IMG/VR virus record: IMGVR_UViG_3300014519_000074
DNA length: 22,079 nt
From: a virus
Lineage: Duplodnaviria > Heunggongvirae > Uroviricota > Caudoviricetes
Reading direction: 5' to 3' (one strand)
The notes below the pieces were generated by a model. The model did not search any database, had not been told where the DNA came from, and worked only from the letters and a program-made list of their open reading frames with translations. A program made the translations under genes and the position numbers. Below, piece by piece: positions 310-22,079 of the stretch (position 1 is its first letter; each line of letters opens with the position of its first letter).

Positions 310-1410
310 TCATTCCATTTCGAAATCATCAATCCTCACTTCAAGCTCCAGACTGGTTGTAAAACCGTTATCCGGGCTGACGGTATGTGTCAGAGTCGTA
401 ATGGTCCATTCCGCATCATCTATCGGCTGTTTAAAACCACTGACCTTCACAGGCATTTCCGTGTAGAGATCTGCCCGCCCTTCTGCCAGTTGTAGCGAAA
501 ATGACGCAACGCCGCGTTGCAGGCGTTCCCACTGCATTTTCGCCGCTCGTTCGGCGTTGCTCCGGTTGGCATAAGTGCGATTAAGTACCAGCACGTTTTC
601 ATCCGTACCCACCAGGTAATCGCCCTGCTTCGCTTCTGGCTCTTTCTTCTGCTTCTTAGTTCTGCGCTTACGCTTCACCGTGGTGCTTTCTTTCTTCGCA
701 GGTTCGCGGGTATGCAACCAGCTGGCAATTACGCCCGTGTAGGCTCCGCGATCTGCCAGGGTAAATCGGTGACTGTCGCCGTCCTTGCGTGTGATAGTGA
801 TCACTGGCAGAGGTTTACCAGTGGCGCTTTTGCCCTGCCCCTGCCGGATGAATAACAGATTGCCATTTTTCACCGACGCGATGGCACCGTACTGTCGCGC
901 CAGCCGCATCAGAAAACTGCCGTCACTCTCATTAGTCTGGTCTATATGCTCCACGGGCTTATCCGACAGGTCTTTACCCAGTGCCATCTTCAGCTTGTGC
1001 CGCGCGGCTATTTCCTTCACCACTTCCCCGACGGTGGTCTTATGCCACGATTTTTCACGGCGGGTATTCAGCGTTTCCCGAAAATCAGCACTTCGCGCCC
1101 GGATAGTCAGGCGGTCCGGTGCGCCAGTGTGTTCAATCTCGTCCACTGTGAATGCCCCTTTCGGGAAAAGCGGCTGCCCCTTCCAGCCCAGCGCCAGCGT
1201 AATAACCGCACCACGGCGCGGCAGCACGATTTTTCCGTCAGCGTCATCCAGCTCCAGATCAAGCTGGTCCGCTTCAAAGCCCCGGTTATCCGTCAGCGTC
1301 AAACTCATCAGGCGGTTATCCAGCACAGTGGTGATATCCCTGCCCTCAATACTGATGCTGAATGCGGGAGTTTTGTTGCCTTTGTTAAGCAGTTCAGAGC
1401 TGAAATTCAC
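310..1410 (-). CDS. D: Tail protein D (late control gene D family)
   Basis: 366-aa ORF; N-terminus (TPAF...TLTDNRGFEADQLDLELDDADG), central lysine-rich stretch and C-terminus (TEMPVKVSGFK...WTIT) match the P2 gpD pattern; position after U. Confidence 0.88.
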   Translation of the reverse strand: MNFSSELLNKGNKTPAFSISIEGRDITTVLDNRLMSLTLTDNRGFEADQLDLELDDADGKIVLPRRGAVITLALGWKGQPLFPKGAFTVDEIEHTGAPDRLTIRARSADFRETLNTRREKSWHKTTVGEVVKEIAARHKLKMALGKDLSDKPVEHIDQTNESDGSFLMRLARQYGAIASVKNGNLLFIRQGQGKSATGKPLPVITITRKDGDSHRFTLADRGAYTGVIASWLHTREPAKKESTTVKRKRRTKKQKKEPEAKQGDYLVGTDENVLVLNRTYANRSNAERAAKMQWERLQRGVASFSLQLAEGRADLYTEMPVKVSGFKQPIDDAEWTITTLTHTVSPDNGFTTSLELEVRIDDFEME

Positions 1411-1892
1411 GACAGCAGCCCTCCCACCGTTTTACTGATATCGCTTAAGGCAGACGTTGCCGTGTCCTGCAGATTATTCAGTTGCGCACTGAGATCACCG
1501 AACATATCGGACAGGGATTCATCCACTCGTTTGAGCGACAGGGTGAACTCAATCCGGCGCGGCATACCGTCGCGGAAAAACTCCGTTTTAGTCTGATTCA
1601 GTCCCTCAATCACATACATGCCGTAAATCGTGCCGCTGCCTTCAATCAGGGGCCATGCTTTCCCCTGTTCTGCCATCTGCTCCAGTGCCAGCAACGACAG
1701 CCTGCCGCCTGTTATTTCCGGCATAAGAACACCGGAAAGCGTCAGCATGTCGTTTTCCGGTCCCAGAAACTGCGTGGACGGACGTCGGTTTACCCGACTG
1801 TTTGCCGCATGTCGCCAGCTGCGTTGATACTGCAGTTCCTGATACGGAACGGTGCGCAGCATAAACACGTACAATCCCAGCACCATCATCAT
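1407..1892 (-). CDS. U: Tail protein U
   Basis: 161-aa ORF MMMVLGLYVFMLRTVPYQ...SWRH, colinear with P2 gpU; 4-bp overlaps with D and T. Confidence 0.85.
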   Translation of the reverse strand: MMMVLGLYVFMLRTVPYQELQYQRSWRHAANSRVNRRPSTQFLGPENDMLTLSGVLMPEITGGRLSLLALEQMAEQGKAWPLIEGSGTIYGMYVIEGLNQTKTEFFRDGMPRRIEFTLSLKRVDESLSDMFGDLSAQLNNLQDTATSALSDISKTVGGLLS

Positions 1893-4800
1893 GCGTCGTA
1901 TCCCCCCTGATCGCTGTAGTTACTCCTGGCTTTTGCCTTCAGCCTGCGTTCACGTTCATCAAGCTGGCGTGCCACCTCCCGCGCAATATCCTGCGCACTT
2001 TGTCCTGGCTGCGTCTGAATGATGATCTGCGTCGGTGCCTCAATCCGTTGAACGAGCGGCACAGTGGCTGCGCGACTCACAATTGCTTCTCCACCTTTCG
2101 CGGGAAGTGCCAAAGGGTGCAACGGTGGAAGCTCTGCTGGCGCGGCAGCAACGCCCATCATTCCGGCAACAACGGCAGCCAGTGCAGCTGTATTTCTCCG
2201 GCTGGTCACATTTGCCGGGCCGTTAACAATTTCCGGCCCGTTTTCACCGACGATGCCAAACTGCCCTCGCGGGATATACCCGCCGCTGTCATACATCCCC
2301 GCAAAGCCATATCCCCATGATGGAAAACCACCCGATGGCATCATCACTTTACCGTCTGCATTCACCGTCGCAGGTTGCTGACGCGTCACGCTTTCCGGCA
2401 GTTTTGCCTTTGCGGCCTCTTTACTGACAATGCCGAGCTTCTCCAGCAACCAGGAAACGCCGGATTTCAGGGAGTCCAGCGGATGCATGACCATATTCAG
2501 CCCTTCCGCCAGTGCCTCCCCGAATCGCCGCCCCATTGCCGCTGCACTCTGCAGTTCGGCAGAGGTCGACTTAACGGGCGTCAGCAGATCAGTAAACCAG
2601 CCCCACAGCGCCTGTACTTTGTCGCCAATCCACTGAAACACAGGCTTAAGTGGTTCGAATGCAGCACTGATGGGACCTGCCGCCGCTTTGAATCCTTCCA
2701 CCACGCCACCGAGAAATGCGGTGATGGGTTGCCAGTATTTCCAGACAACCAGCGCCACGCCCGCCAGTGCAGTAACCACAAGACCTATCGGACTGAGCAG
2801 AGCACCTAACAGACCAGATATGGCATACAGGGCAACGCGCAGCATCGCCAGCGGACCAGATGCAAGCACACGAAGCACCGCGCCTGCGGCAGCCAGTCCA
2901 CCGCGCAGTACCGCCAGAGGATTCATAAACATCACAGCAACAGCACGTAAACCGGATAATCCAGACCGCAAAAGTGCAACCGGCGCACCTGCTACAGTTT
3001 TAAGGACATTTCCCGTCAGTGATGCCGTGCGGCGCAAAGACGACAACGGCGCAGTAAGTAAACCTGCGGCGTTGCCCGATGAAGCAAGCCCGCGTCGCAG
3101 CAGTGCCAGTGGTGCGCCAGCCAGCCAGGACAACGCGCTGCTGGTTCGAGTTACTGCTGCCGTAACGGAAGATAACGTTTTGATACCCAGCACAGAGAAT
3201 CCCAGACGGATCACTGCCAGCGGCCCCAGCACTGCAGCCAGCGCCACCGCTAAGGTGCCGAGGCCGACGGTAACCGCAGCCACAACAGCCGATGCTTTCA
3301 TCAGTGTGCCTGTCAGTTCCGGGTTAGCTTCCACCCAGCGACGCAACGCCCCCGTGACGCTTTTCACCGTGTACAGAATATCCATCAGCGGCTGGCGCAG
3401 CGTTTCGCCCAGGCTGCTGAAGGTGTTCTGCGCTCCGGTTTTGACCAGCAACCACTGCGCAGAAAGTGAATCCTTGTTAATGTCGGATTCTTTCTGCATG
3501 GAGCCGAGCGCATCATTGCCCGCTGTCAGTTTTAACTGACGCTGCAGTTCCGGCAGGTTGTTTGCCAGTTTCGCCGCGTCATCGCCAAACTCTTTACCAA
3601 ACAACATAGTCATGGCAGACAGGCGCTTGTCCTGCGGCAGCGCGTTTACCTTCTCCAGCACGCGCTGGATGGTTCCCATCGCATCCTTCGTCATCTGCTT
3701 TTCAATCACTTCAGGATTGAGTTTCAGCAGATTCATCCCTTCAAAGAAACTTTTGCTTTGCATGGTGGCAATGGACAATTCACACACCATCGCGTTTGCT
3801 GCACTGGCTGCAACCTCTGGCGCAGCGCCCAGTGTCAGGAAGGTGGAACCCAGCGCCGCCGCTTTACGATAATCCAGACGGTCAGCCACACCGCCCAGAC
3901 GTTGCATCACATCAATGATGTCTGCCCCTTTCGACATGGCGTTATCATCCAGATAGTTCAGCGCATCACCGAGCTGTTCAATATTGCGGGTGGGGATTTT
4001 GTAGAGCTGGGCGATTTTCCCCAGACTTTCTGACAGTTCATCCGCTGGCAGCTCAAAGGCTGTTGCCGCCTTTGCTGCCGTACTGGCGAAGGCCAGCAGG
4101 TCACGTTTCTGATCTTCCCAACTGTCGTCAGGGTTTGCGACGTTCATGCGCGCGCCACCTTCAACCAGTGCAGCGAAATCCACAGCACCGTTTTCCATCG
4201 GCAACTGTTCGCTGGCAGCCTTGATGGCATCCTGCATTTCATAAAAACGTGCAGTGCGGTTGCCATTATCGTCACGCAGACCATTGACCTGCTTTGCCAC
4301 ACCTTTCATGGCATCTTCCATGCTGGTATAGCTTTTTACTGCCGCCATCACTGGTGCGCCCATTGCCAGCCCTGCAGCCGTGGTGGTGGCTCCGGCACCT
4401 GCAATACGATCACGCACCTCCAGCGAACGGGCATAACTGGCACGCGCTGCATTCATCCTGCGCTGAGCTTCCCCCAGTCGCTTCAGCCGCGCCTCCTGTT
4501 TCGAAAGTTCCTGGTTATAACGTGATGTTTCACGGGCTAAACGGGCAGTTGCTCCCGCATCGTCTTTCGCAGAAATTCCCGCCCGGTACAGTTCAGCACG
4601 CACAAGCGCCGTCTGCTGCTGCAGCTTTTTCTGGCGTTCTTCCAGGCGCTGAACAGCCAGCCGTTGACGGCCCAGAGCAACAACCTGACGTTGCGAAGGC
4701 GGCCCCATCGCTCCCAGTTCCTGACTGAGCAAATTTGCACGCTGGCGGGCATAGTTCAGCCTGTCGCCTAATTTCTGATTTTCTGCCTGCAGCTTTCGGA

Positions 4801-4966
4801 AGCTGTCCAGACTGCTCCCGGCCTGATCAAGCTGCTTTATTGCATCGCGGGATTTTTTGACAGCAGCAGCCAGTTCTCTTGAACTGGCCTGCGCAGATCG
4901 AAATGGGCGGGTGAGCTTGTCAACCGCATTAAGAATGACCTGCAGACGCAGGTTGTTATCACTCAT
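1889..4966 (-). CDS. T: Tail tape measure protein (1025 aa)
   Basis: Very long ORF with a coiled-coil-rich N-terminal third (QLDQAGSS...LKRLGEAQRR) and a long Ala/Gly/Leu hydrophobic repeat region (GAPLALLRRGL / GAPVALLRSGL / NPLAVLRGGL), typical of tape measure proteins; sits between E/E' and U as in P2. Confidence 0.9.
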   Translation of the reverse strand: MSDNNLRLQVILNAVDKLTRPFRSAQASSRELAAAVKKSRDAIKQLDQAGSSLDSFRKLQAENQKLGDRLNYARQRANLLSQELGAMGPPSQRQVVALGRQRLAVQRLEERQKKLQQQTALVRAELYRAGISAKDDAGATARLARETSRYNQELSKQEARLKRLGEAQRRMNAARASYARSLEVRDRIAGAGATTTAAGLAMGAPVMAAVKSYTSMEDAMKGVAKQVNGLRDDNGNRTARFYEMQDAIKAASEQLPMENGAVDFAALVEGGARMNVANPDDSWEDQKRDLLAFASTAAKAATAFELPADELSESLGKIAQLYKIPTRNIEQLGDALNYLDDNAMSKGADIIDVMQRLGGVADRLDYRKAAALGSTFLTLGAAPEVAASAANAMVCELSIATMQSKSFFEGMNLLKLNPEVIEKQMTKDAMGTIQRVLEKVNALPQDKRLSAMTMLFGKEFGDDAAKLANNLPELQRQLKLTAGNDALGSMQKESDINKDSLSAQWLLVKTGAQNTFSSLGETLRQPLMDILYTVKSVTGALRRWVEANPELTGTLMKASAVVAAVTVGLGTLAVALAAVLGPLAVIRLGFSVLGIKTLSSVTAAVTRTSSALSWLAGAPLALLRRGLASSGNAAGLLTAPLSSLRRTASLTGNVLKTVAGAPVALLRSGLSGLRAVAVMFMNPLAVLRGGLAAAGAVLRVLASGPLAMLRVALYAISGLLGALLSPIGLVVTALAGVALVVWKYWQPITAFLGGVVEGFKAAAGPISAAFEPLKPVFQWIGDKVQALWGWFTDLLTPVKSTSAELQSAAAMGRRFGEALAEGLNMVMHPLDSLKSGVSWLLEKLGIVSKEAAKAKLPESVTRQQPATVNADGKVMMPSGGFPSWGYGFAGMYDSGGYIPRGQFGIVGENGPEIVNGPANVTSRRNTAALAAVVAGMMGVAAAPAELPPLHPLALPAKGGEAIVSRAATVPLVQRIEAPTQIIIQTQPGQSAQDIAREVARQLDERERRLKAKARSNYSDQGGYDA

Positions 4967-5395
4967 CGTTGGCCCCGCTTCTCTGAATCGCTTTATACCG
5001 CCATTCCAGCACTTCGGTCAGCGGCATAACGTCAGTAACGGATGGCGGCCAGTGAAAAATGGTGGCGATATCTGCCACCAGATCGTCAACCGTCAGGCTG
5101 TCGGTAAACCGGCAAGCACCGACTTCTTCAACAAAAAAGTGACAACCTCAACCGACATGGCAGTGAGATCTGCCGGGTCCATCTCTGCAATTTCCTGTGC
5201 AGTCAGTGCCGGACTGGAGATGCGGGGGAGCACGGTCATCATCGCGTTTACATCCATATCCATAATGGCCTGCAGGCGTGTACCGCGCAGCGCACCGGAC
5301 TGCGGTTTACGCAGCACAATTTCGGTGATTTCTGTTTTACCGCGCTTGATGGGGGTATCCAGTTGAATGGTCTTTTCAGTCTGCTTATCGCTCAT
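4959..5395 (-). CDS. E': E+E' tail assembly chaperone fusion made by a programmed -1 frameshift at T_TTT_TTG (minus-strand heptamer at plus 5132..5138); extension ends 4959, overlapping the T start
   Basis: Hand translation of the -1 frame after the heptamer gives ...FFVEEVGACRFTDSLTVDDLVADIATIFHWPPSVTDVMPLTEVLEWRYKAIQRSGANDE*, stopping at TGA overlapping ATGAGTGA of T. This is the conserved E' tail known from P2-like and lambda G/GT systems. Confidence 0.7.
5093..5395 (-). CDS. E: Tail assembly chaperone E (in-frame product)
   Basis: 100-aa ORF ending ...VVTFLLKKSVLAGLPTA; contains the slippery heptamer at its 3' end; located between FII and T. Confidence 0.85.
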   Translation of the reverse strand: MSDKQTEKTIQLDTPIKRGKTEITEIVLRKPQSGALRGTRLQAIMDMDVNAMMTVLPRISSPALTAQEIAEMDPADLTAMSVEVVTFLLKKSVLAGLPTA

Positions 5396-5449
5396 TTTGC
5401 TGTCCTGTCAATTGGGTTCTGGCGCGGTATCCCGCGCCGTTCAGATATA

Positions 5450-5965
5450 TCAGAGGCCGAGGGCGTTGCGGTGCGCTTCCATCAGGTCCACACCGTCCAC
5501 AATTTCCACCATGTTGATAAGGTCCACTTCATAGAGCACCTCACCATTGATGGTCAGCTTCGCGTAGCTGTTGGTACTGGTCACTTTGGTGGTGTTGCTT
5601 TCGCCCGTCTTCCACTCGCCGGAATCCACTTCTTTGTGACGTCCACGCACGACAAGCTCCACGGCCTGCACTTCCCCGGTATCGTCACGCTGAATAGAGC
5701 CGGTAAAGCGCAGCTGGATGCCATCCACCGTGGCTTTACCCATCTGTTTAAACAGCAGCAATTCAGTACCACCAATGGAAAATTCTGTATCCAGCGCACT
5801 GTCATCAAGCCCCAGATCCACATCCACCGCACCCGGCATTCCGCCGCCGCGATACTTCTCATATTTGCGGGTAAATTTCGGCAGCGTCAGCGACTCAACG
5901 ATCCCCTGCCAGTTGTTCCCGTCGTTAAACAGGTTCAGGTGTTTTAATTTGCGTGGTAAAGCCAT
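5450..5965 (-). CDS. FII: Tail tube protein FII
   Basis: 171-aa ORF MALPRKLKHLNLFNDGNNWQG...; size and sequence as for P2 gpFII; lies immediately downstream of the sheath 3' fragment. Confidence 0.9.
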   Translation of the reverse strand: MALPRKLKHLNLFNDGNNWQGIVESLTLPKFTRKYEKYRGGGMPGAVDVDLGLDDSALDTEFSIGGTELLLFKQMGKATVDGIQLRFTGSIQRDDTGEVQAVELVVRGRHKEVDSGEWKTGESNTTKVTSTNSYAKLTINGEVLYEVDLINMVEIVDGVDLMEAHRNALGL

Positions 5966-5974
5966 GTTGTCCCC

Positions 5975-6195
5975 TTACGCGCTGACCTGGCTGGCGAAAT
6001 TAACCAGGTACTGATCGGTGATGCGCTGACGCAGCATCAGGTTTTCAAGTGGCGGCACTGGCGTGTAGTCGTAGTCGATGGTGAGTTTTCCGGCTTTCAG
6101 CGTGTCTTTGTCGTTCACCGACTCATCCAGCCAGCAATCACCACCAATGAGATAGCCCTGACTGACCAGGCTGCGCATTTTGGCGCGGATACCTT
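5975..6195 (-). pseudogene. FI: Tail sheath FI, 3' fragment (C-terminal ~73 codons), separated from the rest of the gene by an inversion
   Basis: Minus-strand translation ...G|[71 protein letters not shown] matches the sheath C-terminus (P2 gpFI ...[31 protein letters not shown]...). The [13 protein letters not shown] prefix of the tracked ORF is junction/cassette-derived, not sheath. Confidence 0.85.
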
Positions 6196-6207
6196 GGTTT
6201 GGGAGAA
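6182..6207. other. Hybrid recombination site (inversion junction 2): good gix/cix-like half-site TTCTCCCAAACC + AA core (minus-strand reading) fused to sheath-derived GGTATCCGCGCC
   Basis: Plus strand GGCGCGGATACC TT GGTTTGGGAGAA. The cassette-side half is identical to the half-site at 8045..8056; the other half is FI coding sequence. Confidence 0.7.
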
Positions 6208-6543
6208 TTATCTCTGGCTGGCACTGCATCGGGTGTCATTGGCCTGAATGGGTATGTAACGATCCCGTTAATTATTTCAGGTTCCCGGAGAACACTGATT
6301 ATTCAGTGGGGGCAGGCGAGATTTGGTGGGTCTGGTGGTGAAGATGCCGGATATCTTAACGATTTTCCTTTTGCCTTTCCGTCAGCATGTTATGGAATGA
6401 TAGTTAGTCATGTGGGGCATACACCTTCAGGCGCAGGAATCCTGTCGGCTTCTGCAATTACATCAAATCAGTTCCGCGGTTTTTCAAGCATAGCGACTGC
6501 TGTAAACGCTGTATTAGGTCGTTATATCGCTATAGGGGTGTAA
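6196..6543 (+). CDS. Tail fibre C-terminal variable cassette (Sv-like); no start codon or promoter of its own, in frame with the H constant part across the crossover site in the reconstructed orientation
   Basis: Open frame begins at the crossover core ([16 protein letters not shown]...[10 protein letters not shown]...GRYIAIGV) and is followed directly by a tail-fibre assembly gene; arrangement matches Mu/P1 Sv-U cassettes. Confidence 0.75.
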
Positions 6544-6544
6544 T

Positions 6545-6982
6545 ATGTTTTATAGTCCATCTTTAAACATTTTTGTGAATCCTGCACTTAAGGATGATTA
6601 CATTAATGCAAATTCATGGCCAGATGATGCTCTGGCTGTCAGTGATGATGTTTATAATGAATTTGCAATCAATACGCCTCCAGATGACAAAATTCGTGTT
6701 GCAGGAAAAAATGGATTACCCACATGGGCACTAATACCTCCACCATCACATGAAGAACTTATTCAACAGGCAGAATCAGAAAGGCAATTATTGCTTAATC
6801 AGGCCAACGAATACATGAACAGTAAACAATGGCCCGGTAAAGCCGCTATTGGTCGTCTGAAAAGCGAGGAACTGGCGCAATATAATTCGTGGCTGGATTA
6901 TCTGGACGCACTGGAGCTAGTCGATACTACCGGTGCGCCAGATATTGAATGGCCTACGCCTCCGGCAGTTCAGGCCAGATGA
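6545..6982 (+). CDS. Tail fibre assembly chaperone (Tfa, U-like) for the Sv cassette
   Basis: 145-aa ORF starting at the stop of Sv (TAAtATG); C-terminus ...GAPDIEWPTPP resembles the conserved Tfa C-terminal motif; converges on and overlaps U' by 29 bp. Confidence 0.8.
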   Translation: MFYSPSLNIFVNPALKDDYINANSWPDDALAVSDDVYNEFAINTPPDDKIRVAGKNGLPTWALIPPPSHEELIQQAESERQLLLNQANEYMNSKQWPGKAAIGRLKSEELAQYNSWLDYLDALELVDTTGAPDIEWPTPPAVQAR

Positions 6983-7556
6983 CATCCGGCGCGGTGCTGG
7001 TATCTGTTGCCGCCACCGCGTCAATGTAATCCAGCACGGCGTTAAGTCGGGTTGTTTCTGCCTGCGTCAACTTCCGTCCGGCCTGTAATTTCAGCTGAAT
7101 CAGACTAATGGAAGCCATTGCTGCATCAATCAGTGACTGGCGCTGTGCTTCTGCCGCGTCTACTGCGGCACTATGCTGTGCCTCAGTATCCGTCACCCAT
7201 TTCTCACCATCCCATTTATCATATGGCGTTAACGGGGCGATAGTGGTTGTATTTTCAGGGTAATCACCCGGAGCTGTGATTTCTTTCGATTCTCCTGTTT
7301 CGGTGCTATAGATGATTTCACCGCGATGGTCTGGCACATATTCCCATGAGTTAAAATCTGCAGAACGGCAGATTGCATAACCAGCTTTATGTGTAACTGG
7401 TGCATCTAAACAAGAACATGCCGGGATACCGACGCCAACCGCAAGATATTCAGTTGATGTGGAAATATATTCCCGCGTTTCACCATCATAATTATAAATG
7501 GTAATGTCTCCCGCTTTTATGGCAATGAGTTCGTTATTTAATACGGCTTTATTCAT
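6954..7556 (-). CDS. Tail fibre assembly chaperone (Tfa, U'-like) for the Sv' cassette
   Basis: 200-aa ORF directly downstream of Sv' on the minus strand; C-terminus ...TAPDVIWPELPEA parallels that of the opposing Tfa. Confidence 0.8.
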   Translation of the reverse strand: MNKAVLNNELIAIKAGDITIYNYDGETREYISTSTEYLAVGVGIPACSCLDAPVTHKAGYAICRSADFNSWEYVPDHRGEIIYSTETGESKEITAPGDYPENTTTIAPLTPYDKWDGEKWVTDTEAQHSAAVDAAEAQRQSLIDAAMASISLIQLKLQAGRKLTQAETTRLNAVLDYIDAVAATDTSTAPDVIWPELPEA

Positions 7557-8098
7557 CAGGCAGCCCTCACGATATAGTTAAATGCAATATTCCGTGGACG
7601 GGTTTCATTTATCCCATATGCTGTTGTTCTCTGATTCCCGACAAAATATCCATTTGGATTAGAAGATACAGAATAATCATCAAAATCAAGTGGGCTATCA
7701 GCACCCGGCGTCAGGCTTGCAATATATCCTCTTCCCATAACTTCTGATGCTGGTATTTCTTTTGTACGATAATCACTAACTCTGAAGAGCTGCCCTTGGT
7801 GGGTGTGTGATTCCACTCCTCCATTCTGAAGACTTAGCAAGGCACGTACAGCATCAATACCACGCCCGTCATCCCAGCCACGAATAAACTCACCACGTAA
7901 ATCAGGCAATTTATTTGTCGGATAAGCCTTTGCCAGTTCCGGGTATTCTTCAGCAGAAAAAGCGGCACCGTTGCATTTCAGCCAGCCTGTTGGCGGAGTG
8001 GCTGAAGGCCACGGAACAGGCACCCCAACCGGTAATGCAGAGCCTTCTCCCAAACCAACGTTTAAGAAAATGCAGAGGTAACAGCTAACTGGCATCAT
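7556..8098 (-). CDS. Alternative tail fibre C-terminal variable cassette (Sv'-like); functional portion begins at the crossover site (about 8056) and would be fused to H after cassette inversion
   Basis: Translation ...FLNVGLGEGSALPVGVPVPWPSATPPTGWLKCNGAAF...HTHQGQLF... resembles the tail-collar-type receptor-binding C-termini of Mu S'/P1 fibres; its 5' end contains the gix-like site, and the GLGE codons are identical to the start of the Sv cassette. Confidence 0.75.
   Translation of the reverse strand: MMPVSCYLCIFLNVGLGEGSALPVGVPVPWPSATPPTGWLKCNGAAFSAEEYPELAKAYPTNKLPDLRGEFIRGWDDGRGIDAVRALLSLQNGGVESHTHQGQLFRVSDYRTKEIPASEVMGRGYIASLTPGADSPLDFDDYSVSSNPNGYFVGNQRTTAYGINETRPRNIAFNYIVRAA
8045..8070. 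other. Intact gix/cix/hix-like 26-bp recombination site: TTCTCCCAAACC AA CGTTTAAGAAAA
   Basis: 12-2-12 imperfect dyad resembling DNA-invertase crossover sites (hix/gix/cix as remembered); lies at the Sv' 5' end just upstream of the invertase gene; its left half is an inverted copy of the half-site at 6196..6207. Confidence 0.7.
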
Positions 8099-8125
8099 CT
8101 CCGGTTTTTATTCAGGGGGATGATC

Positions 8126-8692
8126 ATGCTTATTGGCTATGTACGCGTGTCAACAAATGACCAGAACACCGATTTGCAACGTAATGCACTGAACTGCGCG
8201 GGATGTGAGCAGATTTTTGAGGACAAAATCAGTGGCACTAAGTCCGACAGACCGGGGCTGAAAAAACTACTCAGGACACTATCGGCAGGAGACACGCTGG
8301 TTGTCTGGAAGCTGGACAGGTTGGGGCGCAGTATGCGGCATCTTGTTACGCTGATAGAAGAGTTGCGCCAGCGTGGTGTGAATTTCAGAAGCCTGACTGA
8401 CAGTATTGATACCAGTACCCCAATGGGCCGTTTCTTTTTTCATGTCATGGGTGCCCTGGCTGAAATGGAACGCGAACTGATAGTTGAACGTACCAGGGCA
8501 GGGCTGGCTGCAGCTCGTGCCAAAGGCAGAGTAGGTGGACGCCGTCCTAAGTTGACCACCGAACAGTGGGCACAGATTGGGCGTTTACTCGAGGCCGGAG
8601 AATCAAGACAGCGTATTGCACTGATTTTTGATGTAGGCGTTTCTACCATTTATAGAAAATTTCCGGCAAATAAGATCAATGAATCCCCCTGA
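8126..8692 (+). CDS. Serine DNA invertase of the Gin/Pin/Cin/Hin family (ORF track start 8120; ATG at 8126 gives MLIGYVRVST...)
   Basis: Translation MLIGYVRVSTNDQNTDLQRNALNCAGCEQIFEDKISGTKSDRPGLKKLL...DTLVVWKLDRLGRSMRHL...GRFFFHVMGALAEMERELIVERT...GGRRPKLT...VGVSTIYRKFP is near-identical in pattern to Gin/Cin/Pin, with the catalytic Ser in the YVRVST motif and a C-terminal helix-turn-helix; GGGGGA Shine-Dalgarno upstream. Confidence 0.95.
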   Translation: MLIGYVRVSTNDQNTDLQRNALNCAGCEQIFEDKISGTKSDRPGLKKLLRTLSAGDTLVVWKLDRLGRSMRHLVTLIEELRQRGVNFRSLTDSIDTSTPMGRFFFHVMGALAEMERELIVERTRAGLAAARAKGRVGGRRPKLTTEQWAQIGRLLEAGESRQRIALIFDVGVSTIYRKFPANKINESP

Positions 8693-8740
8693 ATCAGCAT
8701 TATGTTGATTATCCCTGCAAGCAGACAAATACCGTTATTT

Positions 8741-8758
8741 TGTGTGAATAACGACACA
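8741..8758. promoter_or_regulatory. Candidate Ogr-type activator site (TGT-N12-ACA) of a PF-like late promoter, about 80 bp upstream of the FI start
   Basis: TGTGTGAATAACGACACA seen in the invertase-FI intergenic region; P2 late promoters carry TGT-N12-ACA dyads centred near -55. The motif is short and expected by chance a few times in 22 kb. Confidence 0.4.
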
Positions 8759-8834
8759 ACTGCGCTTAGCTGTTTGTCAGGCACAATCACTTCAACATAG
8801 GGCGAAGCCTAATCCAATCAGGAGGTTCGCCACT

Positions 8835-9797
8835 ATGGCTCAGGATTACCACCACGGGGTGCGCGTTGTTGAAGTCAACGAAGGTACCCGATCTATTACC
8901 ACGGTGAGCACCGCCATCGTGGGTATGGTCTGCACGGGCGATGATGCCGATGCAAAAATGTTTCCTCTTAATAAACCCGTGCTGATCACTGATGTGCTGA
9001 CTGCCAGCGGTAAAGCGGGTGAGTCAGGTACTCTGGCCCGTTCGCTGGATGCCATCGCTGACCAGGCAAAACCCGTGACCATTGTTGTGCGTGTGCCGCA
9101 GGGTGAAACGGAAGACGAAACCACGACCAATATCATCGGCGCAGTGACTGCAGAAGGTAAAAAAACAGGTATGAAAGCCCTGTTATCTGCCCAGTCACAG
9201 CTCGGCGTTAAACCGCGCATTCTCGGCGTGCCAGGCCACGACACCAAGGCGGTAGCTACTGAGTTGCTGAGCGTGGCGCAAAGCCTGCGTGGATTTGCTT
9301 ACCTGTCAGCGTATGGCTGCAAGACAGTGCAGGAGGCGATCACTTACCGCGAAAACTTCAGCCAGCGCGAAGGGATGCTGATCTGGCCTGACTTTACTGG
9401 CTGGGACACGGTGCTGAATGCCGAAGCAACGGCATATGCCACCGCCCGTGCGCTTGGTCTGCGCGCCAAAATTGACGAGCAGACCGGATGGCACAAAAGC
9501 CTGTCCAACGTGGGCGTGAACGGTGTCACCGGAATTTCTGCAGATGTGTTCTGGGATCTGCAGGACCCGGCAACCGATGCAGGTCTGCTGAACCAGAACG
9601 ACGTCACCACGCTTGTGCGTAAAGACGGTTTCCGCTTCTGGGGTTCCCGCTGCCTGAGTGATGACCCGCTCTTTGCCTTCGAAAACTACACCCGCACGGC
9701 GCAGGTGCTGATGGACACGATGGCAGAAGCACACATGTGGGCGGTGGATAAACCGCTTAACCCGTCGCTGGCCCGCGACATTATCGAAGGTATGTGA
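8835..9797 (+). pseudogene. FI: Tail sheath FI, 5' part (N-terminal 320 codons), truncated by the inversion junction; opposite strand to all flanking late genes
   Basis: Translation MAQDYHHGVRVVEVNEGTRSITTVSTAIVGMVCTG...FENYTRTAQVLMDTMAEAHMWAVDKPL...ARDIIEG is colinear with the P2 sheath N-terminal ~320 residues; it ends with M-stop contributed by junction sequence; AGGAGG Shine-Dalgarno upstream. Confidence 0.88.
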
Positions 9798-9800
9798 GAA
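9775..9800. other. Hybrid recombination site (inversion junction 1): sheath-derived GCGACATTATCG + AA core + gix-like half-site GGTATGTGAGAA from gene H
   Basis: Joining FI 8835..9788 to the reverse complement of 6193..5975 restores ...[15 protein letters not shown]... in frame; the H-side half-site encodes the H residues LLTYL. Confidence 0.7.
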
Positions 9801-10836
9801 GACCAGCTACATCCTTTCCACTCAAATTGGTAAGCGTATTGTCCAGCGGTTGTTTACCTGCCAGCGCATTAAGCATTGTCGTGGCAAAGTTCGGATCATT
9901 CCCCAGTGCCGCCGCCAGTTCGTTCAGTGTATCCAGTGCAGCAGGTGCAGAACCCACCATTCCTGCAATCGCCGATTTCACAAAAGCCGTAGTGGCAATC
10001 TGTGTATTGTTGACCGACTGCGCCGCCGTGGGGGCTGTAGGCGTTCCGGTGAGTGCCGGACTCGACAACGGTGCTTTTAGTGCCAGCGCATTGTTAATGG
10101 TGGTACTGAAATTCGGATCATTGTTAATGGCTGCGGCTATTTCTTTCAGCGTGTCCAGCGTGGCTGGCGCACCATTAATAAGGGCCGTCAGTGCCGCCTG
10201 TACAAACGCAGTGGTCGCAACCTGCGTGGTATTATTCCCCGCCGCTGGCGTTGGCGCTTTGGGGGTTCCGGTAAATGTCGGGCTGGCTTTTGGCGCGTAC
10301 TGTGAATGCGGGTCCGGTGCGGCAAGATGTTTTGCCATCTGATCATCCGCGTACACCTTCAGCTCCAGTGCCTTGTCATCCACATACTTGCGGGTTGCCA
10401 GCACTACAGCAGGGTCGATTTTCAGGGTGATATTGTCCGTGCTGCTGGTAATCAGCACCATGCGCACGGTCTGAGTGCGCCCGCTACCTTCAGCCAGTTG
10501 CGGCTTATAGCTTTCCGGGCAGTTGCCCACGGCAATCAATGCACCTGACTCATCAAACAGGCCCACTTCACGTATCCACCAACCGCCCTCGTTTTCAGGG
10601 ATCACCTGTTCGGCAATAATCTGGCTGCTGTTCTGCGGGTCGATATAAAGCATATTCAGCGCAGCCCGGCGTTTCTCATTTACCAGTGCCGTCTGCTTTG
10701 CGTCCGGCGTTGGCAATACTCCACCGCCATCGCCCACCGCCATATGGGTAATTTTTAGCGGCACACCGAGCGCGGCGGCGCTGGCAAGTTTCGCCGCGCC
10801 AATATCCGTCAGCAGGGTATAAAATTTTGTGCTCAT
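9781..10836 (-). CDS. H: Tail fibre protein H, constant N-terminal part (351 aa), ending in a junction-derived stop and lacking a C-terminal receptor-binding cassette in this orientation
   Basis: N-terminus MSTKFYTLLTDIGAAKLASAAA...; two tandem ~70-aa fibre repeats (...NTQVATTAFV...DPNF...); last codons ...LLTYLR* cross the junction into FI-derived sequence. Confidence 0.85.
   Translation of the reverse strand: MSTKFYTLLTDIGAAKLASAAALGVPLKITHMAVGDGGGVLPTPDAKQTALVNEKRRAALNMLYIDPQNSSQIIAEQVIPENEGGWWIREVGLFDESGALIAVGNCPESYKPQLAEGSGRTQTVRMVLITSSTDNITLKIDPAVVLATRKYVDDKALELKVYADDQMAKHLAAPDPHSQYAPKASPTFTGTPKAPTPAAGNNTTQVATTAFVQAALTALINGAPATLDTLKEIAAAINNDPNFSTTINNALALKAPLSSPALTGTPTAPTAAQSVNNTQIATTAFVKSAIAGMVGSAPAALDTLNELAAALGNDPNFATTMLNALAGKQPLDNTLTNLSGKDVAGLLTYLR
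9844..10281. repeat. Tandem duplication (2 x ~215 bp) encoding two copies of a ~72-aa tail-fibre shaft repeat within H
   Basis: Protein repeats TGTPKAPTPAAGNNTTQVATTAFVQAALTALINGAPATLDTLKEIAAAINNDPNFSTTINNALALKAPL and TGTPTAPTAAQSVNNTQIATTAFVKSAIAGMVGSAPAALDTLNELAAALGNDPNFATTMLNALAGKQPL; the nucleotide copies both contain TTCGGATCATT. Confidence 0.7.
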
Positions 10837-17227: not shown

Positions 17228-18286
17228 TTACGCTCCGGTTTCTGCTGCGGCGGCGCTAAAATCGCCAATCTGGATGTTTTCCACCAGTGCAGCGCAGCGG
17301 TAGTCCTCAACCACATAGGCTTCGTTAACGGATTCAAAGTTTTCAATCCGGTCACGTTTCGGGTTGTCGATAACTGAACGGCGGCGGGTGTCTTCCTGCC
17401 AGTAAATGGACAGGTTATCCAGACGGGTGATCAGCAGTGCATTCGGCGGGAAGAACGGCGCACGCACGGCCTGCAGGCCACCCATGCGTTTCTGACTGAT
17501 GATCATATCGGCAGCCAGTTTTTCACTGTTTTCCTGCTCTTTGTTGACCAGCGGGAAATACTTGTCAGACAGCAGTTCACGACCGCAAATCACCACCAGA
17601 TCGTCATCGTCCTGGTAGACCACGTCGATAAGCTCATTGACGGCATCCATCACCACAGCGTCCAGGTTGGCATATTCGCCACCTTTACCGACTTTCACCG
17701 CGCCCGGTGTGGTTTCACCGCCCGTGGTGGTGCTGCCCATAACGTGATCCGGTGCATCCTCACGGATTTTCTGCAGCCAGCCTTTGTTCACATCCTGCAG
17801 CAGCGGGTTTTCACTACGGTTGGAGGTTTTCGCACGCTTCACGCCGTTAAAGCCGATCATGATGCGGTCCAGTGCCTGACGTTTCACGATGGCGTCACGG
17901 ATACGCACCTGGAAATCCTGAAACTTCGCCCACAGGTCCAGCTTCGCGTAGGTCAGTACCGTGTCAAAGTTGGTCTGCTCGCATTTATATTCCACATCGA
18001 CCATCAGCGTCGGATCGACAGGTTCACGCTCTTTCGCGGTGGTATCAGTGGTTCCGGCAATGGTGCTGCCAACTCCCAACCCCAGCAGCTGACCGGACTG
18101 CTCAGTCACTGGCGTGACGTTAATCAGCGTCAGGAAAGCGGCGGACTGCTGGATCTGGTCTTCCAATGTCTGCTGCACGGACGGCTCTACGGTGAACTTG
18201 CTGGACAGTTCTTCAACTGCCACACCGTTCAGACGCGCCAGTTGCTGCAGATAAGCGTTAAAAGCAAAGCGGGTATTCTTCTTCAT
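17228..18286 (-). CDS. N: Major capsid protein N
   Basis: 352-aa ORF MKKNTRFAFNAYLQQLARLNGVAVEELSSKFTVEPSVQQTLEDQIQQSAAFLTLINV...YVVEDYRCAALVENIQIGDFS, colinear with P2 gpN over the full length. Confidence 0.93.
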   Translation of the reverse strand: MKKNTRFAFNAYLQQLARLNGVAVEELSSKFTVEPSVQQTLEDQIQQSAAFLTLINVTPVTEQSGQLLGLGVGSTIAGTTDTTAKEREPVDPTLMVDVEYKCEQTNFDTVLTYAKLDLWAKFQDFQVRIRDAIVKRQALDRIMIGFNGVKRAKTSNRSENPLLQDVNKGWLQKIREDAPDHVMGSTTTGGETTPGAVKVGKGGEYANLDAVVMDAVNELIDVVYQDDDDLVVICGRELLSDKYFPLVNKEQENSEKLAADMIISQKRMGGLQAVRAPFFPPNALLITRLDNLSIYWQEDTRRRSVIDNPKRDRIENFESVNEAYVVEDYRCAALVENIQIGDFSAAAAETGA

Positions 18287-18302
18287 CAGGTTTTGTGCTC
18301 CA

Positions 18303-19136
18303 TCAGCAATTGGTCAGAGTGTCAGCGGGGGCGTTACCGCCTGTTGCACGCTGGCGGTAGTCCTGGCGGCTGTCTTCATGGCTCAGCTTGTCCACCAGTT
18401 CGTTAAAGGCGGTCTGCTGTGCCTGCAGGGCAGTCTCCAGCTCAGACAGGCGTTCTTCCTGCTCAGACAGGGATTTTTCGGTGCGCGCACTCAGGTTCTG
18501 CTGCTCAGTGGCGACCAGTTCCACGGCCTTATGCACATCAGAGAACCGGGCGTCATCGGACTGCTCTTTTTTGGTGAACAGCGCCGTGACACGGGCAAAC
18601 AGGGACGGTTTGTCATCCTGGATTTCTTCCAGTTCGATCACCGTTTCCTCTGCAGCGGTAAAAAGATTGGCGGGATTCTGCTTGCGGTTTGCCAGCGGGT
18701 TATGGGCTGCACTGGCGCTGAATGTCAGCATTTCAGTGCCCAGACTGGCAGGGTCATCAGTGGCAGCCAGGCCGACCAGGTAGGCTTTGCCCGTATCAGC
18801 GAACTTCGGGCTAACTTCCATAGATGTGAATAATTTCTGGCCTTTTTTCACCAGTTCCACCAGGGACTCCGTTGGCTCAACGTCGGCATACAGCGCCATC
18901 TTGCCTGCCAGCGGACCTTCCTTGATTTCTTCAGCAAACAGCGCCGTCACCTTGCCGTAGCGGTTAAAGGTGCTGTCCGGCAGATAAGACTTGATGTGCT
19001 CAAGGTTAATCAGCGCGGTATACACCGCCGGGTTGTAGCTGGCTGCCATCTGTTCCAGCCATTCACGCTGGATTTCGCGTCCGTCGGTGGTGGCACCTTC
19101 CACCCCGATGCGAAAACGCTTTGCTTTCACTGTCAT
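18303..19136 (-). CDS. O: Capsid scaffolding protein O
   Basis: 277-aa ORF MTVKAKRFRIGVEGATTDGREIQREWLEQMAASYNPAVY...SMEVSPKFADTGKAYLVGLAATDDPASLGTE...; matches the P2 gpO pattern. Confidence 0.9.
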   Translation of the reverse strand: MTVKAKRFRIGVEGATTDGREIQREWLEQMAASYNPAVYTALINLEHIKSYLPDSTFNRYGKVTALFAEEIKEGPLAGKMALYADVEPTESLVELVKKGQKLFTSMEVSPKFADTGKAYLVGLAATDDPASLGTEMLTFSASAAHNPLANRKQNPANLFTAAEETVIELEEIQDDKPSLFARVTALFTKKEQSDDARFSDVHKAVELVATEQQNLSARTEKSLSEQEERLSELETALQAQQTAFNELVDKLSHEDSRQDYRQRATGGNAPADTLTNC

Positions 19137-21045: not shown

Positions 21046-22079
21046 TGGGAAAGAGTAAGAAGAACCGCGCTGCGTCGACGAAACAGATCCAGCATAAAAG
21101 CCAGACTTCAGCCGAAGCATTCAGCTTCGGTGATCCCGTTCCTGTTCTGGACCGCCGCGAACTGCTGGACTATGTGGAATGCGTACAGATGGAGTGTTGG
21201 TACGAGCCACCCGTAAGTTTTGACGGACTGGCGCGCACCTTCCGGGCTGCCGTGCATCACAGTTCCCCGATTGCAGTAAAGTGCAACATTCTGACCAGTA
21301 CCTATATCCCTCATCCGCTGCTCAGCCAACAGGCTTTTTCGCGTTTTGTACAGGACTATCTGGTATTTGGTAACGCCTACCTGGAGAAACGCACGAACCG
21401 ATTCGGTGAAGTTATCGCCCTTGAGCCTGCGCTGGCAAAATACACCCGACGCGGGTTAGACCTGGATACCTACTGGTTTGTGCAATACGGTATGACAACC
21501 CAGCCGTATCAGTTCACGAAAGGCAGCATTTTTCAGCTGATGGAACCGGACATCAACCAGGAGATCTACGGCCTGCCCGGCTATCTTTCTGCCATCCCAT
21601 CCGCTTTGCTCAACGAGTCCGCCACGCTGTTCCGCCGCAAGTATTACATTAACGGCAGTCATGCCGGCTTCATCATGTACATGACCGATGCCGCGCAGAA
21701 CCAGGAGGATGTGAACAACCTCCGCAACGCAATGAAAAGCGCCAAAGGTCCGGGTAACTTCCGCAATCTGTTTATGTACTCGCCTAATGGTAAAAAAGAC
21801 GGACTTCAGATTATCCCGTTGTCAGAAGTCGCAGCGAAGGATGAATTTCTGAATATCAAAAATGTTAGTCGCGATGACATGATGGCAGCACACCGCGTGC
21901 CGCCACAGATGATGGGGATAATGCCAAATAATGTTGGGGGGTTTGGGGATGTGGAGAAGGCAAGTAATGTATTTGTACGCAATGAACTAATACCATTGCA
22001 AAAAAGATTTGAAGAGTTAAATGTTTGGTTAAAAGAAAAAGTGATACAGTTCGAAGAATATAAACTTCATTCAAATTAG
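21045..22079 (+). CDS. Q: Portal (capsid vertex) protein Q (ATG at 21045; ORF track starts at an in-frame TTG at 21042)
   Basis: 344-aa product MGKSKKNR...AEAFSFGDPVPVLDRRELLDYVE...NESATLFRRKYYINGSHAGFIMYMTDA...VFVRNELIPLQ..., colinear with P2 gpQ; the stop codon is the last three bases of the window. Confidence 0.93.
   Translation: MGKSKKNRAASTKQIQHKSQTSAEAFSFGDPVPVLDRRELLDYVECVQMECWYEPPVSFDGLARTFRAAVHHSSPIAVKCNILTSTYIPHPLLSQQAFSRFVQDYLVFGNAYLEKRTNRFGEVIALEPALAKYTRRGLDLDTYWFVQYGMTTQPYQFTKGSIFQLMEPDINQEIYGLPGYLSAIPSALLNESATLFRRKYYINGSHAGFIMYMTDAAQNQEDVNNLRNAMKSAKGPGNFRNLFMYSPNGKKDGLQIIPLSEVAAKDEFLNIKNVSRDDMMAAHRVPPQMMGIMPNNVGGFGDVEKASNVFVRNELIPLQKRFEELNVWLKEKVIQFEEYKLHSN

What the first reader, a model, noticed from the sequence alone, without database searches (positions are those of the whole stretch)
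6182..9800. The inversion endpoints are a bona fide invertase crossover site in H and a secondary (quasi) site inside FI
Junction 1 (9775..9800) reads GCGACATTATCG-AA-GGTATGTGAGAA and junction 2 (6182..6207, minus strand) reads TTCTCCCAAACC-AA-GGTATCCGCGCC. Swapping halves regenerates a good 12-2-12 site TTCTCCCAAACC-AA-GGTATGTGAGAA at the H constant/variable boundary, and the uninterrupted FI sequence ...CATTATCGAAGGTATCCGCGCC. The two parents share only the 7 bp AAGGTAT around the AA core. This is the signature of a Gin/Cin/Hin-type recombinase acting on a weak secondary site, a class of event described for Cin and Gin. Here it simultaneously knocks out the sheath and the tail fibre while keeping the invertase gene intact. 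Two readings: a dead-end aberrant inversion that locked the prophage as defective, or, more speculatively, a reversible switch that gates virion (or tailocin-like) production.
Basis: partly seen in the sequence, partly recalled or inferred. Interest (0 to 1): 0.85.

Follow-up and report, generated by a model that had tools for sequence, protein, structure and literature searches.

The report
Prophage invertase mis-fired, splitting tail genes
A P2-like prophage remnant in E. coli had a 3.6-kb block flipped when its own tail-fibre DNA invertase recombined its normal site with a weak look-alike inside the tail-sheath gene; this natural, inherited example of a known laboratory phenomenon broke a prophage that was already dead and is not a switch.

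Summary
Junctions at 6182-6207 and 9775-9800 are reciprocal half-site swaps between the tail-fibre (H) crossover site TTCTCACATACC-TT-GGTTTGGGAGAA and a weak site GCGACATTATCG-AA-GGTATCCGCGCC in the sheath gene FI. Both parental sites are intact in near-identical uninverted prophages (E. coli N32, CE10, IAI39).

The inversion is real and inherited. Two of 5,426 complete genomes carry it, and the junction-specific truncated sheath protein is indexed in 294 blocks of public assemblies.

The invertase is 79% identical to P1 Cin and is unchanged between inverted and uninverted genomes. The 1.87-kb fibre segment has flipped at least twice since the large inversion, using hybrid site J2 and the natural site at 8045-8070.

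A second, independent event exists in another prophage. There the H site recombined with a site in the cox gene, inverting about 21 kb. By a central-12-bp score, both secondary sites are among the four best of about 1,980 candidates.

The prophage had already lost its integrase N-terminus, repressor and early genes, so the inversion did not cause its defectiveness. Nothing supports a reversible switch. This is a new natural instance of Cin-type quasi-site recombination, of moderate interest.

The parts
6182..6207 (-). Hybrid site J2. Minus strand reads TTCTCCCAAACC-AA-GGTATCCGCGCC: the inner (segment-side) half of the H crossover site joined to the right half of the sheath secondary site. Core at 6194-6195. 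Its central 12 bp are identical to those of the natural H site.
   Evidence: Still used as a recombination partner of R.
8045..8070 (+). Natural crossover site R (TTCTCCCAAACC-AA-CGTTTAAGAAAA) next to the invertase gene. Core at 8057-8058. It is the right boundary of the 1.87-kb tail-fibre invertible segment.
   Evidence: The segment 6194-8058 is inverted relative to the window in AR_0013 and AF57.
9775..9800 (+). Hybrid site J1 (GCGACATTATCG-AA-GGTATGTGAGAA): the left half of the sheath secondary site joined to the outer (constant-side) half of the H crossover site. Core at 9787-9788.
   Evidence: 201/201 identical in two complete genomes.
6196..9786 (.). The aberrantly inverted 3.6-kb block between the two cores. 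It contains the small invertible segment, site R, the invertase gene, the sheath-operon late promoter and the 5' 82% of the sheath gene.
   Evidence: Three-block alignment to N32 with the middle block reversed. In-silico re-inversion restores both genes.
6196..8056 (.). Normal tail-fibre invertible segment, here in 'state A'. It holds fibre C-terminus A (6196..6543 +), assembly protein A (6545..6982 +), assembly protein B (6954..7556 -) and fibre C-terminus B (7556..about 8056 -).
   Evidence: Both states occur on identical haplotypes, with and without a sub-lineage marker.
8126..8692 (+). Serine DNA invertase, 188 aa, intact.
   Evidence: PF00239 + PF02796. E = 3e-93 to Mu Gin structure 3uj3. 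79% identity to P1 Cin. Same protein accession WP_000905010.1 in inverted and uninverted genomes.
8144..8215 (+). Region homologous to the annotated P1 Cin recombinational enhancer (nt 19-90 of cin). A candidate enhancer only.
   Evidence: P1 annotation. 56/72 identical. Fis binding not tested.
8741..8758 (+). TGT-N12-ACA element upstream of the sheath start: the probable Ogr-dependent late promoter of the sheath operon, now inside the inverted block.
   Evidence: Four of the six matches in the window lie at the four expected late-promoter positions.
8835..9797 (+). Sheath (FI) 5' fragment: residues 1-318, then Gly-Met-stop read from H-derived DNA.
5975..6193 (-). Sheath (FI) 3' fragment: residues 319-390. 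It lies inside the 84-aa chimeric ORF 5975..6229.
9781..10836 (-). Tail-fibre H constant part: residues 1-350, then Arg-stop read from sheath-derived DNA.
310..5965 (-). Tube, tail-assembly E/E', tape-measure, U and D genes. All are intact but separated from their promoter by the inversion.
   Evidence: The loss of transcription is inferred.

Best explanation
The prophage's Cin/Gin-type serine invertase normally flips a 1.87-kb segment between two 26-bp sites to swap tail-fibre C-termini. On one occasion it paired the fibre-gene site L with a weak secondary site inside the sheath gene instead of with its proper partner R. The secondary site has the same AA/TT core in inverted orientation and a good central 12 bp, but poor outer arms. 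Cleavage and exchange at the 2-bp core inverted the 3.6 kb in between.

The inversion split the sheath and fibre genes, turned the sheath-operon promoter around, and left two hybrid sites. It happened in a prophage remnant that had already lost its integrase N-terminus, repressor and early genes. It was therefore tolerated, and an E. coli lineage inherited it. The invertase is still active: the small segment has kept flipping, now between hybrid J2 and R.

Shown: the reciprocal junctions, the parental sites, inheritance, the repeated flips of the small segment, and a second independent case. Inferred: that this invertase (or a near-identical one acting in trans) catalysed the event, and that transcription of the downstream tail genes is lost.
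For: - Reciprocal, conservative exchange within the shared AAGGTAT that contains the core. The parental sites are intact in N32, CE10 and IAI39.
- One endpoint is exactly the natural crossover site. Cores are TT and AA on the same strand, the orientation that gives inversion.
- The invertase is intact, Cin/Gin-like and inside the block. The Fis-contact residues Q151, R154 and L155 (Hin numbering) are conserved (PMC3798978).
- A second independent event occurs in JNEC-KY202, JNEC-KY174 and L016. L recombined with ATGTCACAATCG-AA-CGTTATAGCGAA in cox. The parental site was predicted from the junctions and then found once in N32.
- Site quality among 1,981 compatible AA-core 26-mers in the N32 prophage: R ranks 1, the cox site ranks 2, and the sheath site is in about the top 2%. 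With the central 5+2+5 score, only four non-natural sites reach 8/10 and both used sites are among them. AAGGTAT occurs once in the compatible orientation.
- The inversion is real and inherited: two complete genomes, and 294 blocks of assemblies. All inverted copies share one haplotype.
- Small-segment states A and B each occur with and without the tape-measure duplication/4168A/6680A marker, which requires at least two flips after the inversion.
- IAI39 shares the IS3/truncated-integrase scar but is uninverted. N32 and CE10 lack early genes.
Against: - No experiment shows catalysis.
- The sheath site is weak by the full-site score (12/22), and 14 compatible sites in the prophage score higher, so why this one was used is only partly explained.
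- The central-12-bp scoring window was chosen after seeing the sites.
- Predicted junctions for the other two top-scoring sites were not found.
- Enhancer function is untested.
- The invertase could have been supplied in trans by another prophage.
- Single origin rests on parsimony over very few SNPs.
Confidence: 0.85

Rival explanations
1. The 3.6-kb inversion is a programmed, reversible switch. The invertase toggles sheath and fibre genes on and off to gate production of virions or tailocin-like particles.
For: - The invertase is intact and active in the lineage.
- Hybrid sites J1 and J2 each keep one perfect half-site, so reversal is chemically possible.
- All other late genes in the window are intact.
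Against: - Orientation tracks haplotype: all 13 inverted sequences (the window plus 12 loci from 10 records) share one haplotype.
- Only 2 of about 1,150 complete genomes with this sequence are inverted.
- The secondary site is ordinary coding sequence, conserved 26/26 in relatives that do not invert.
- The inverted state yields only truncated proteins.
- The element lacks integrase, repressor and replication genes, so there is no virion cycle to gate.
Confidence: 0.04
2. The inversion arose without the invertase, by illegitimate recombination or replication template switching at the 7-bp microhomology AAGGTAT. The coincidence with the crossover site is chance.
For: Short microhomology at the junctions is also typical of illegitimate recombination. 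The sheath site matches the invertase consensus poorly in its outer arms.
Against: - One endpoint falls exactly on the 2-bp core region of the natural site.
- A second independent inversion in another prophage uses the same L site with a different partner, which shares only the AA core and a GT dinucleotide with it and is the best secondary site in the prophage.
- Both events are perfectly conservative, with cores in matching orientation.
Confidence: 0.06
3. The two small-segment states among inverted genomes reflect two or more independent large inversions from ancestors in different fibre states, not flipping at the hybrid J2 site.
For: The crossover point would give identical junctions each time. 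Uninverted relatives exist in both states (N32 in A, CE10 in B).
Against: This needs at least four independent rare events to explain all four marker/state combinations, including an SNP inside the segment. J2 retains the natural central 12 bp and one perfect arm.
Confidence: 0.04
4. The arrangement is an assembly artefact.
For: Invertible regions often confuse assemblers (PMC4134206).
Against: The junctions are identical in two complete long-read genomes and in many independent assemblies from different sources.
Confidence: 0.01

Closest known systems
Cin-mediated inversion between a cix site and 'quasi' cix sites (phage P1; Iida & Hiestand-Nauer 1986, 1987, cited in PMC4134206)
   Same: - A Din-family invertase, here 79% identical to Cin.
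- One bona fide 26-bp site pairs with a poorly matching partner.
- The central dinucleotide is identical and in the right orientation.
- The exchange at the core is conservative and leaves hybrid sites.
   Different: - The classical cases were selected in laboratory constructs. The details are from my own knowledge, because the primary papers are not in the held library.
- Here the event occurred naturally in a chromosome, broke two structural genes, was inherited by a lineage, and the hybrid site continues to be used.
- A second natural event uses a different secondary site.
Normal tail-fibre host-range switching in P2-like prophages, Mu (Gin/G segment), P1 (Cin/C segment) and e14 (Pin)
   Same: Same enzyme family, same 12-2-12 site architecture, same segment content (two fibre C-termini with their assembly proteins). 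This switching still operates in the window.
   Different: The 3.6-kb event uses a non-programmed partner, includes the invertase gene itself, and destroys genes rather than alternating between them.
Gene-altering programmed inversions and intragenic invertons (e.g. PMC9881135, PMC4272514)
   Same: An inversion with endpoints inside coding sequences, mediated by a site-specific recombinase.
   Different: Those systems have paired inverted repeats, and both orientations coexist and encode functional alternatives. Here one partner is a chance look-alike, orientation is lineage-fixed, and the product is two pseudogenes.

Membership tests
Din-family (Gin/Cin/Hin/Pin) enhancer-dependent DNA invertase system | Small serine recombinase: N-terminal resolvase catalytic domain plus C-terminal HTH, closely related to Gin and Cin. 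| tested here: met
   PF00239 and PF02796 above threshold. E = 3e-93 over the full length to Gin 3uj3. 79% identity to P1 Cin. phrog_125 DNA invertase.
Din-family (Gin/Cin/Hin/Pin) enhancer-dependent DNA invertase system | Two 26-bp crossover sites (12-bp imperfect inverted half-sites around a 2-bp core) in inverted orientation, bounding alternative tail-fibre C-termini. | tested here: met
   L and R sites in N32, CE10 and many relatives. R and the inner half of L are present in the window. The sites resemble P1 cixL and cixR.
Din-family (Gin/Cin/Hin/Pin) enhancer-dependent DNA invertase system | Residues that contact Fis and are conserved only in invertases (Hin Q151, R154, L155). | tested here: met
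   Alignment to the Hin DNA-binding domain 1hcr places Q, R and L at those positions. The criterion comes from PMC3798978.
Din-family (Gin/Cin/Hin/Pin) enhancer-dependent DNA invertase system | Fis-bound recombinational enhancer in cis. | tested here: inconclusive
   The region homologous to the annotated P1 enhancer is 56/72 identical. My simple Fis-motif scan failed on the P1 positive control. Binding is not testable here.
Secondary ('quasi') site inversion by a Din invertase | One natural site recombines with a partner of limited similarity that shares the central dinucleotide in the orientation giving inversion. | tested here: met
   L has TT and the sheath site AA on the same strand. The sheath site scores 12/22 against 22/22 for natural sites.
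Secondary ('quasi') site inversion by a Din invertase | Reciprocal, conservative exchange at the core, producing two hybrid sites with no bases gained or lost. | tested here: met
   The three alignment blocks to N32 overlap by exactly the shared 7 bp. Re-inversion restores both reading frames.
Secondary ('quasi') site inversion by a Din invertase | The event depends on the invertase. | not testable with these tools
   Circumstantial only: a second independent event at the same L site, and enrichment of both partners among the best-scoring sites.
Programmed phase-variable inverton (for the 3.6-kb block) | Both orientations coexist among clonal or closely related cells. | tested here: not met
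   Orientation is fixed on one haplotype: the window plus 12 loci from 10 records. Only 2 of about 1,150 complete genomes with the sequence are inverted. Read-level data were not available.
Programmed phase-variable inverton (for the 3.6-kb block) | Each orientation yields a functional alternative. | tested here: not met
   The inverted state gives a 320-aa sheath fragment, a 351-aa fibre fragment and short chimeric ORFs only.
Inversion by homologous recombination or IS elements | Long inverted repeats or IS copies at both endpoints. | tested here: not met
   The parental sequences share only 7 bp at the junctions and no IS lies at either end.

The most novel reading that the evidence does not exclude
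Tail-fibre invertases of P2-like prophages may be a recurrent and sequence-predictable cause of prophage self-inactivation. Secondary sites would be defined mainly by the central 12 bp around an AA core and recombine with the fibre-gene site. When the partner lies in cox, as in the JNEC-KY lineage, the inversion immobilises an otherwise complete, retron-carrying prophage. Such 'self-locking' could be a general and possibly host-favoured route to prophage domestication.
Probability: 0.25. Interest if true: 0.6.

Novelty: new member of a known kind. Interest (0 to 1): 0.42.

Why it matters
- It documents that quasi-site recombination by a Din-family invertase, known from 1980s plasmid experiments, happens in natural genomes, is inherited by lineages, and leaves hybrid sites that stay active.
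- It gives two natural secondary sites for defining what the enzyme really needs. The central positions appear to matter more than the HTH-contacted arms.
- It flags an unrecognised way in which prophages can break themselves. The cox/H case locks an otherwise complete prophage.
- It explains a recurring pair of 'pseudogenes' (split sheath, split fibre) in E. coli annotations.
- It warns that inverton-detection tools relying on inverted repeats will miss such events.

Tried and rejected
- **Predicted junctions.** I built the junctions expected for the other two sites that score 8/10 in the central 12 bp (N32 L003 21497 and 12439). None of the 5,426 complete genomes has them. This is uninformative given how rare the events are.
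- **Generic probe.** CTGGTCTTCTCNCATACCTTCG, designed to catch any 'L outer half + TT + CG' junction, gave 0 hits in GTDB species representatives and 0 in JGI metagenomes.
- **Lineage markers.** I tried the tube and E protein alleles as markers to look for revertants. Both alleles are widespread in other P2-like prophages, so the test does not discriminate.
- **Fis motif scan.** A simple scan of the invertase 5' region failed on the P1 positive control, so I discarded it.
- **NCBIfam.** It gave only sub-threshold hits for the invertase and none for the other proteins.
- **Literature.** Searches for natural quasi-site inversions in prophages found only normal switching and citations of the classic Cin papers. 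The Johnson review and the Iida papers are not held.
- **Rejected explanations.** Assembly artefact, IS- or repeat-mediated inversion, and a hyperactive invertase mutant (same protein accession in parental and inverted genomes).
Full report
**1. What the window is**

The window is the late-gene region of a P2-like prophage, running from ogr (position 1) to the portal gene (ending at 22079). The gene order on the minus strand is D, U, tape measure, E'/E and tube (310-5965). Further right, also on the minus strand, are tail-fibre H, I, J, W, V, the lysis genes and the head genes. Between tube and H lies the region in question.

**2.

The flanking ORFs are:
- 8835..9797(+): sheath residues 1-318 followed by Gly-Met-stop.
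- 5975..6229(-): contains sheath residues 319-390.
- 9781..10836(-): the tail-fibre constant part followed by Arg-stop.

Pfam's sheath C-terminal domain is cut cleanly. The N fragment matches profile positions 1-47 and the C fragment 47-104. Re-inverting the DNA between the two core dinucleotides in silico restores a 390-aa sheath and a 465-aa fibre.

**3. The parental arrangement exists**

E. coli N32 and CE10 carry the same prophage at 99.9% identity with the conventional order: H, invertible segment, invertase, intact sheath, tube. N32 contains both parental 26-mers:
- TTCTCACATACC-TT-GGTTTGGGAGAA, at the boundary between the constant and variable parts of the fibre gene (site L).
- GCGACATTATCG-AA-GGTATCCGCGCC, in the sheath gene.

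The window aligns to N32 in three blocks with the middle block reversed. The blocks overlap by exactly the shared AAGGTAT. The exchange was therefore reciprocal and conservative, within 7 bp that include the 2-bp core. The cores are TT and AA on the same strand, which is the orientation that gives inversion. The natural partner R of the small segment is at window 8045-8070.

**4. It is real and inherited**

Junction 1 is 201/201 identical in two of 5,426 complete genomes: AR_0013 and AF57, a UK blood isolate. NCBI's annotation of both lists the same split sheath and split fibre as pseudogenes. The junction-specific 320-aa protein is indexed in 294 blocks of the assembly collection. The window-state junction-2 ORF is in 96 blocks. 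About 1,150 complete genomes contain these sheath or H sequences, and only those two are inverted.

**5. The enzyme**

The 188-aa protein at 8126..8692 has the following properties:
- It has the resolvase and HTH_7 domains.
- It matches the Mu Gin structure over its full length (E = 3e-93).
- It is 79% identical to P1 Cin.
- It keeps the Q/R/L residues that a Hin study reports as Fis-contacting and invertase-specific.
- The stretch homologous to the annotated P1 enhancer is 56/72 identical. Enhancer function is untested.
- The protein accession is the same in inverted and uninverted genomes, so no hyperactive mutant needs to be invoked.

P1 cixR reads TTCTCTTAAACC-AA-GGTATTGGATAA. 'AA-GGTAT' is therefore a natural feature of the constant-side half-site in this family.

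**6. The invertase still works on a hybrid site**

In AR_0013 and AF57 the 1.87-kb segment (6194-8058) is flipped relative to the window. The match to junction 2 stops exactly at the end of the 26-bp site. Among the inverted sequences compared (the window plus 12 loci from 10 records), state A and state B lie on an identical haplotype.

A sub-lineage is marked by an identical 96-bp tape-measure duplication, 4168A, and 6680A; the last of these lies inside the segment. This sub-lineage also shows both states. All four marker/state combinations exist, so the segment has flipped at least twice since the large inversion. The flips used hybrid J2, whose central 12 bp and inner arm are natural, together with R.

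**7. A second, independent event**

While looking up tube-gene neighbourhoods I found contigs (L016 and five similar places) in which early genes abut a fibre variable segment. These contigs and the complete genomes JNEC-KY202 and JNEC-KY174 carry the junctions TTCTCCCAAACC-AA-CGTTATAGCGAA and TTCTCACATACC-TT-CGATTGTGACAT.

If these junctions are reciprocal, the parental partner must be ATGTCACAATCG-AA-CGTTATAGCGAA. That exact 26-mer occurs once in N32, inside the small gene next to CI. The gene is a Cox-like excisionase/repressor (phrog_575, E = 3e-29).

This inversion spans about 21 kb, covering cox, the early and replication genes, a retron, the head, lysis and baseplate genes, and the H constant part. 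It lies in a prophage that is otherwise complete by annotation. It detaches the early operon from its promoter region and breaks the fibre gene.

**8. Why these sites?**

I scored sites with a consensus built only from natural half-sites. In the N32 prophage there are 1,981 AA-core 26-mers in the compatible orientation. R ranks first (22/22) and the cox site second (16/22). The sheath site scores 12/22, roughly the top 2%.

Scoring only the five positions on each side of the core gives a sharper result. R scores 10/10, no site scores 9, and four sites score 8/10, including both sites actually used. AAGGTAT occurs once in the compatible orientation. The choice of that scoring window was made after seeing the sites, so it is a lead and not a test. 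The predicted junctions for the other two 8/10 sites are absent from the complete genomes.

**9. Consequences and timing**

TGT-N12-ACA elements lie at the four positions expected for P2-type late promoters. The sheath-operon element (8741-8758) is inside the inverted block. The tube-to-D genes are therefore probably cut off from their promoter; this is inferred.

The prophage was already dead before the inversion. N32 has IS3 and ISL3 insertions, and N32 and CE10 lack early and replication genes. AR_0013 and AF57 also lack CI and have a truncated integrase next to IS3. IAI39 shares that IS3/truncated-integrase scar, with a 73-bp difference at the junction, yet keeps L, the sheath site and an intact sheath collinear; IS26 has replaced its invertible segment and invertase. 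So the inversion post-dates the loss of the functions needed for a phage cycle, and it did not cause the defectiveness.

**10. Verdict**

Of the two biological readings, 'dead-end aberrant inversion' is right apart from the claim that it caused the defect. The 'reversible switch' reading is unsupported.

The closest precedent is Cin quasi-site inversion (Iida & Hiestand-Nauer, cited in PMC4134206; the details are from my own knowledge). I found no report of naturally fixed events of this kind in the held literature. This is a new natural member of a known kind, of moderate interest. The second, cox-splitting event is the more consequential lead.

Noticed in passing
L021 20149-20174 and L022 1761-1786 (E. 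coli JNEC-KY202, NZ_AP045178.1); also JNEC-KY174 and L016: An independent inversion of about 21 kb between the fibre-gene crossover site and a secondary site in the cox-like gene. It occurs in an otherwise complete P2/186-like prophage, detaches the early operon from its promoter region and breaks H. The parental site was predicted and found in N32 (L003 4760-4785).
   Followed up: yes
L021 11319-13259: The JNEC-KY202 prophage carries a retron Ec67-family reverse transcriptase/endonuclease between the portal and the replication genes. It lies inside the inverted 21-kb block.
   Followed up: no
window 4095-4190; L007, L019, L032: A sub-lineage has an in-frame 96-bp tandem duplication in the tape-measure gene (1057 aa instead of 1025), which would predict a longer tail. 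It travels with SNPs 4168A and 6680A and served as the marker for the four-combination test.
   Followed up: partly
window 9152 and 10039: The window's only two private SNPs relative to every other inverted copy are both synonymous. Both lie in the two broken genes (sheath 5' fragment and fibre constant part), which make up about 9% of the window. The sample is too small to interpret.
   Followed up: partly
L024 (E. coli IAI39, NC_011750.1) 17604-18308 and 29133-29837: Two IS26 copies occur in the same prophage remnant. One replaces the invertible segment and invertase; the other splits the large terminase gene. This shows a different decay route for the same element.
   Followed up: partly
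L003 21497-21522 and 12439-12464 (N32): Two further sites score 8/10 on the central 12 bp: TTGAAGTCAACG-AA-GGTACCCGATCT near sheath codon 12, and CCATGCTCAACG-AA-CGTTACCAGGAC in the head-completion gene. They are predicted candidate secondary sites and were not seen used in complete genomes.
   Followed up: yes
window 22079 / L004 29028-30371: The window ends at the portal stop codon. In the related complete genomes an IS3-family element follows about 130 bp later, and the one draft contig I mapped onto the window (JBTXEN010000132.1) ends about 70 bp past the portal gene. This fits the early region having been removed by IS3-associated deletion in the whole group.
   Followed up: partly
L028 1-3249; L033 2519-3249; L015 2761-2958: Other decay states of related prophages were seen. 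In L028 the sheath is directly preceded by non-phage ABC-transporter and glycosyltransferase genes. In L033 the invertase is missing between the assembly gene and the sheath. In L015 an assembly gene is truncated inside the invertible segment.
   Followed up: no
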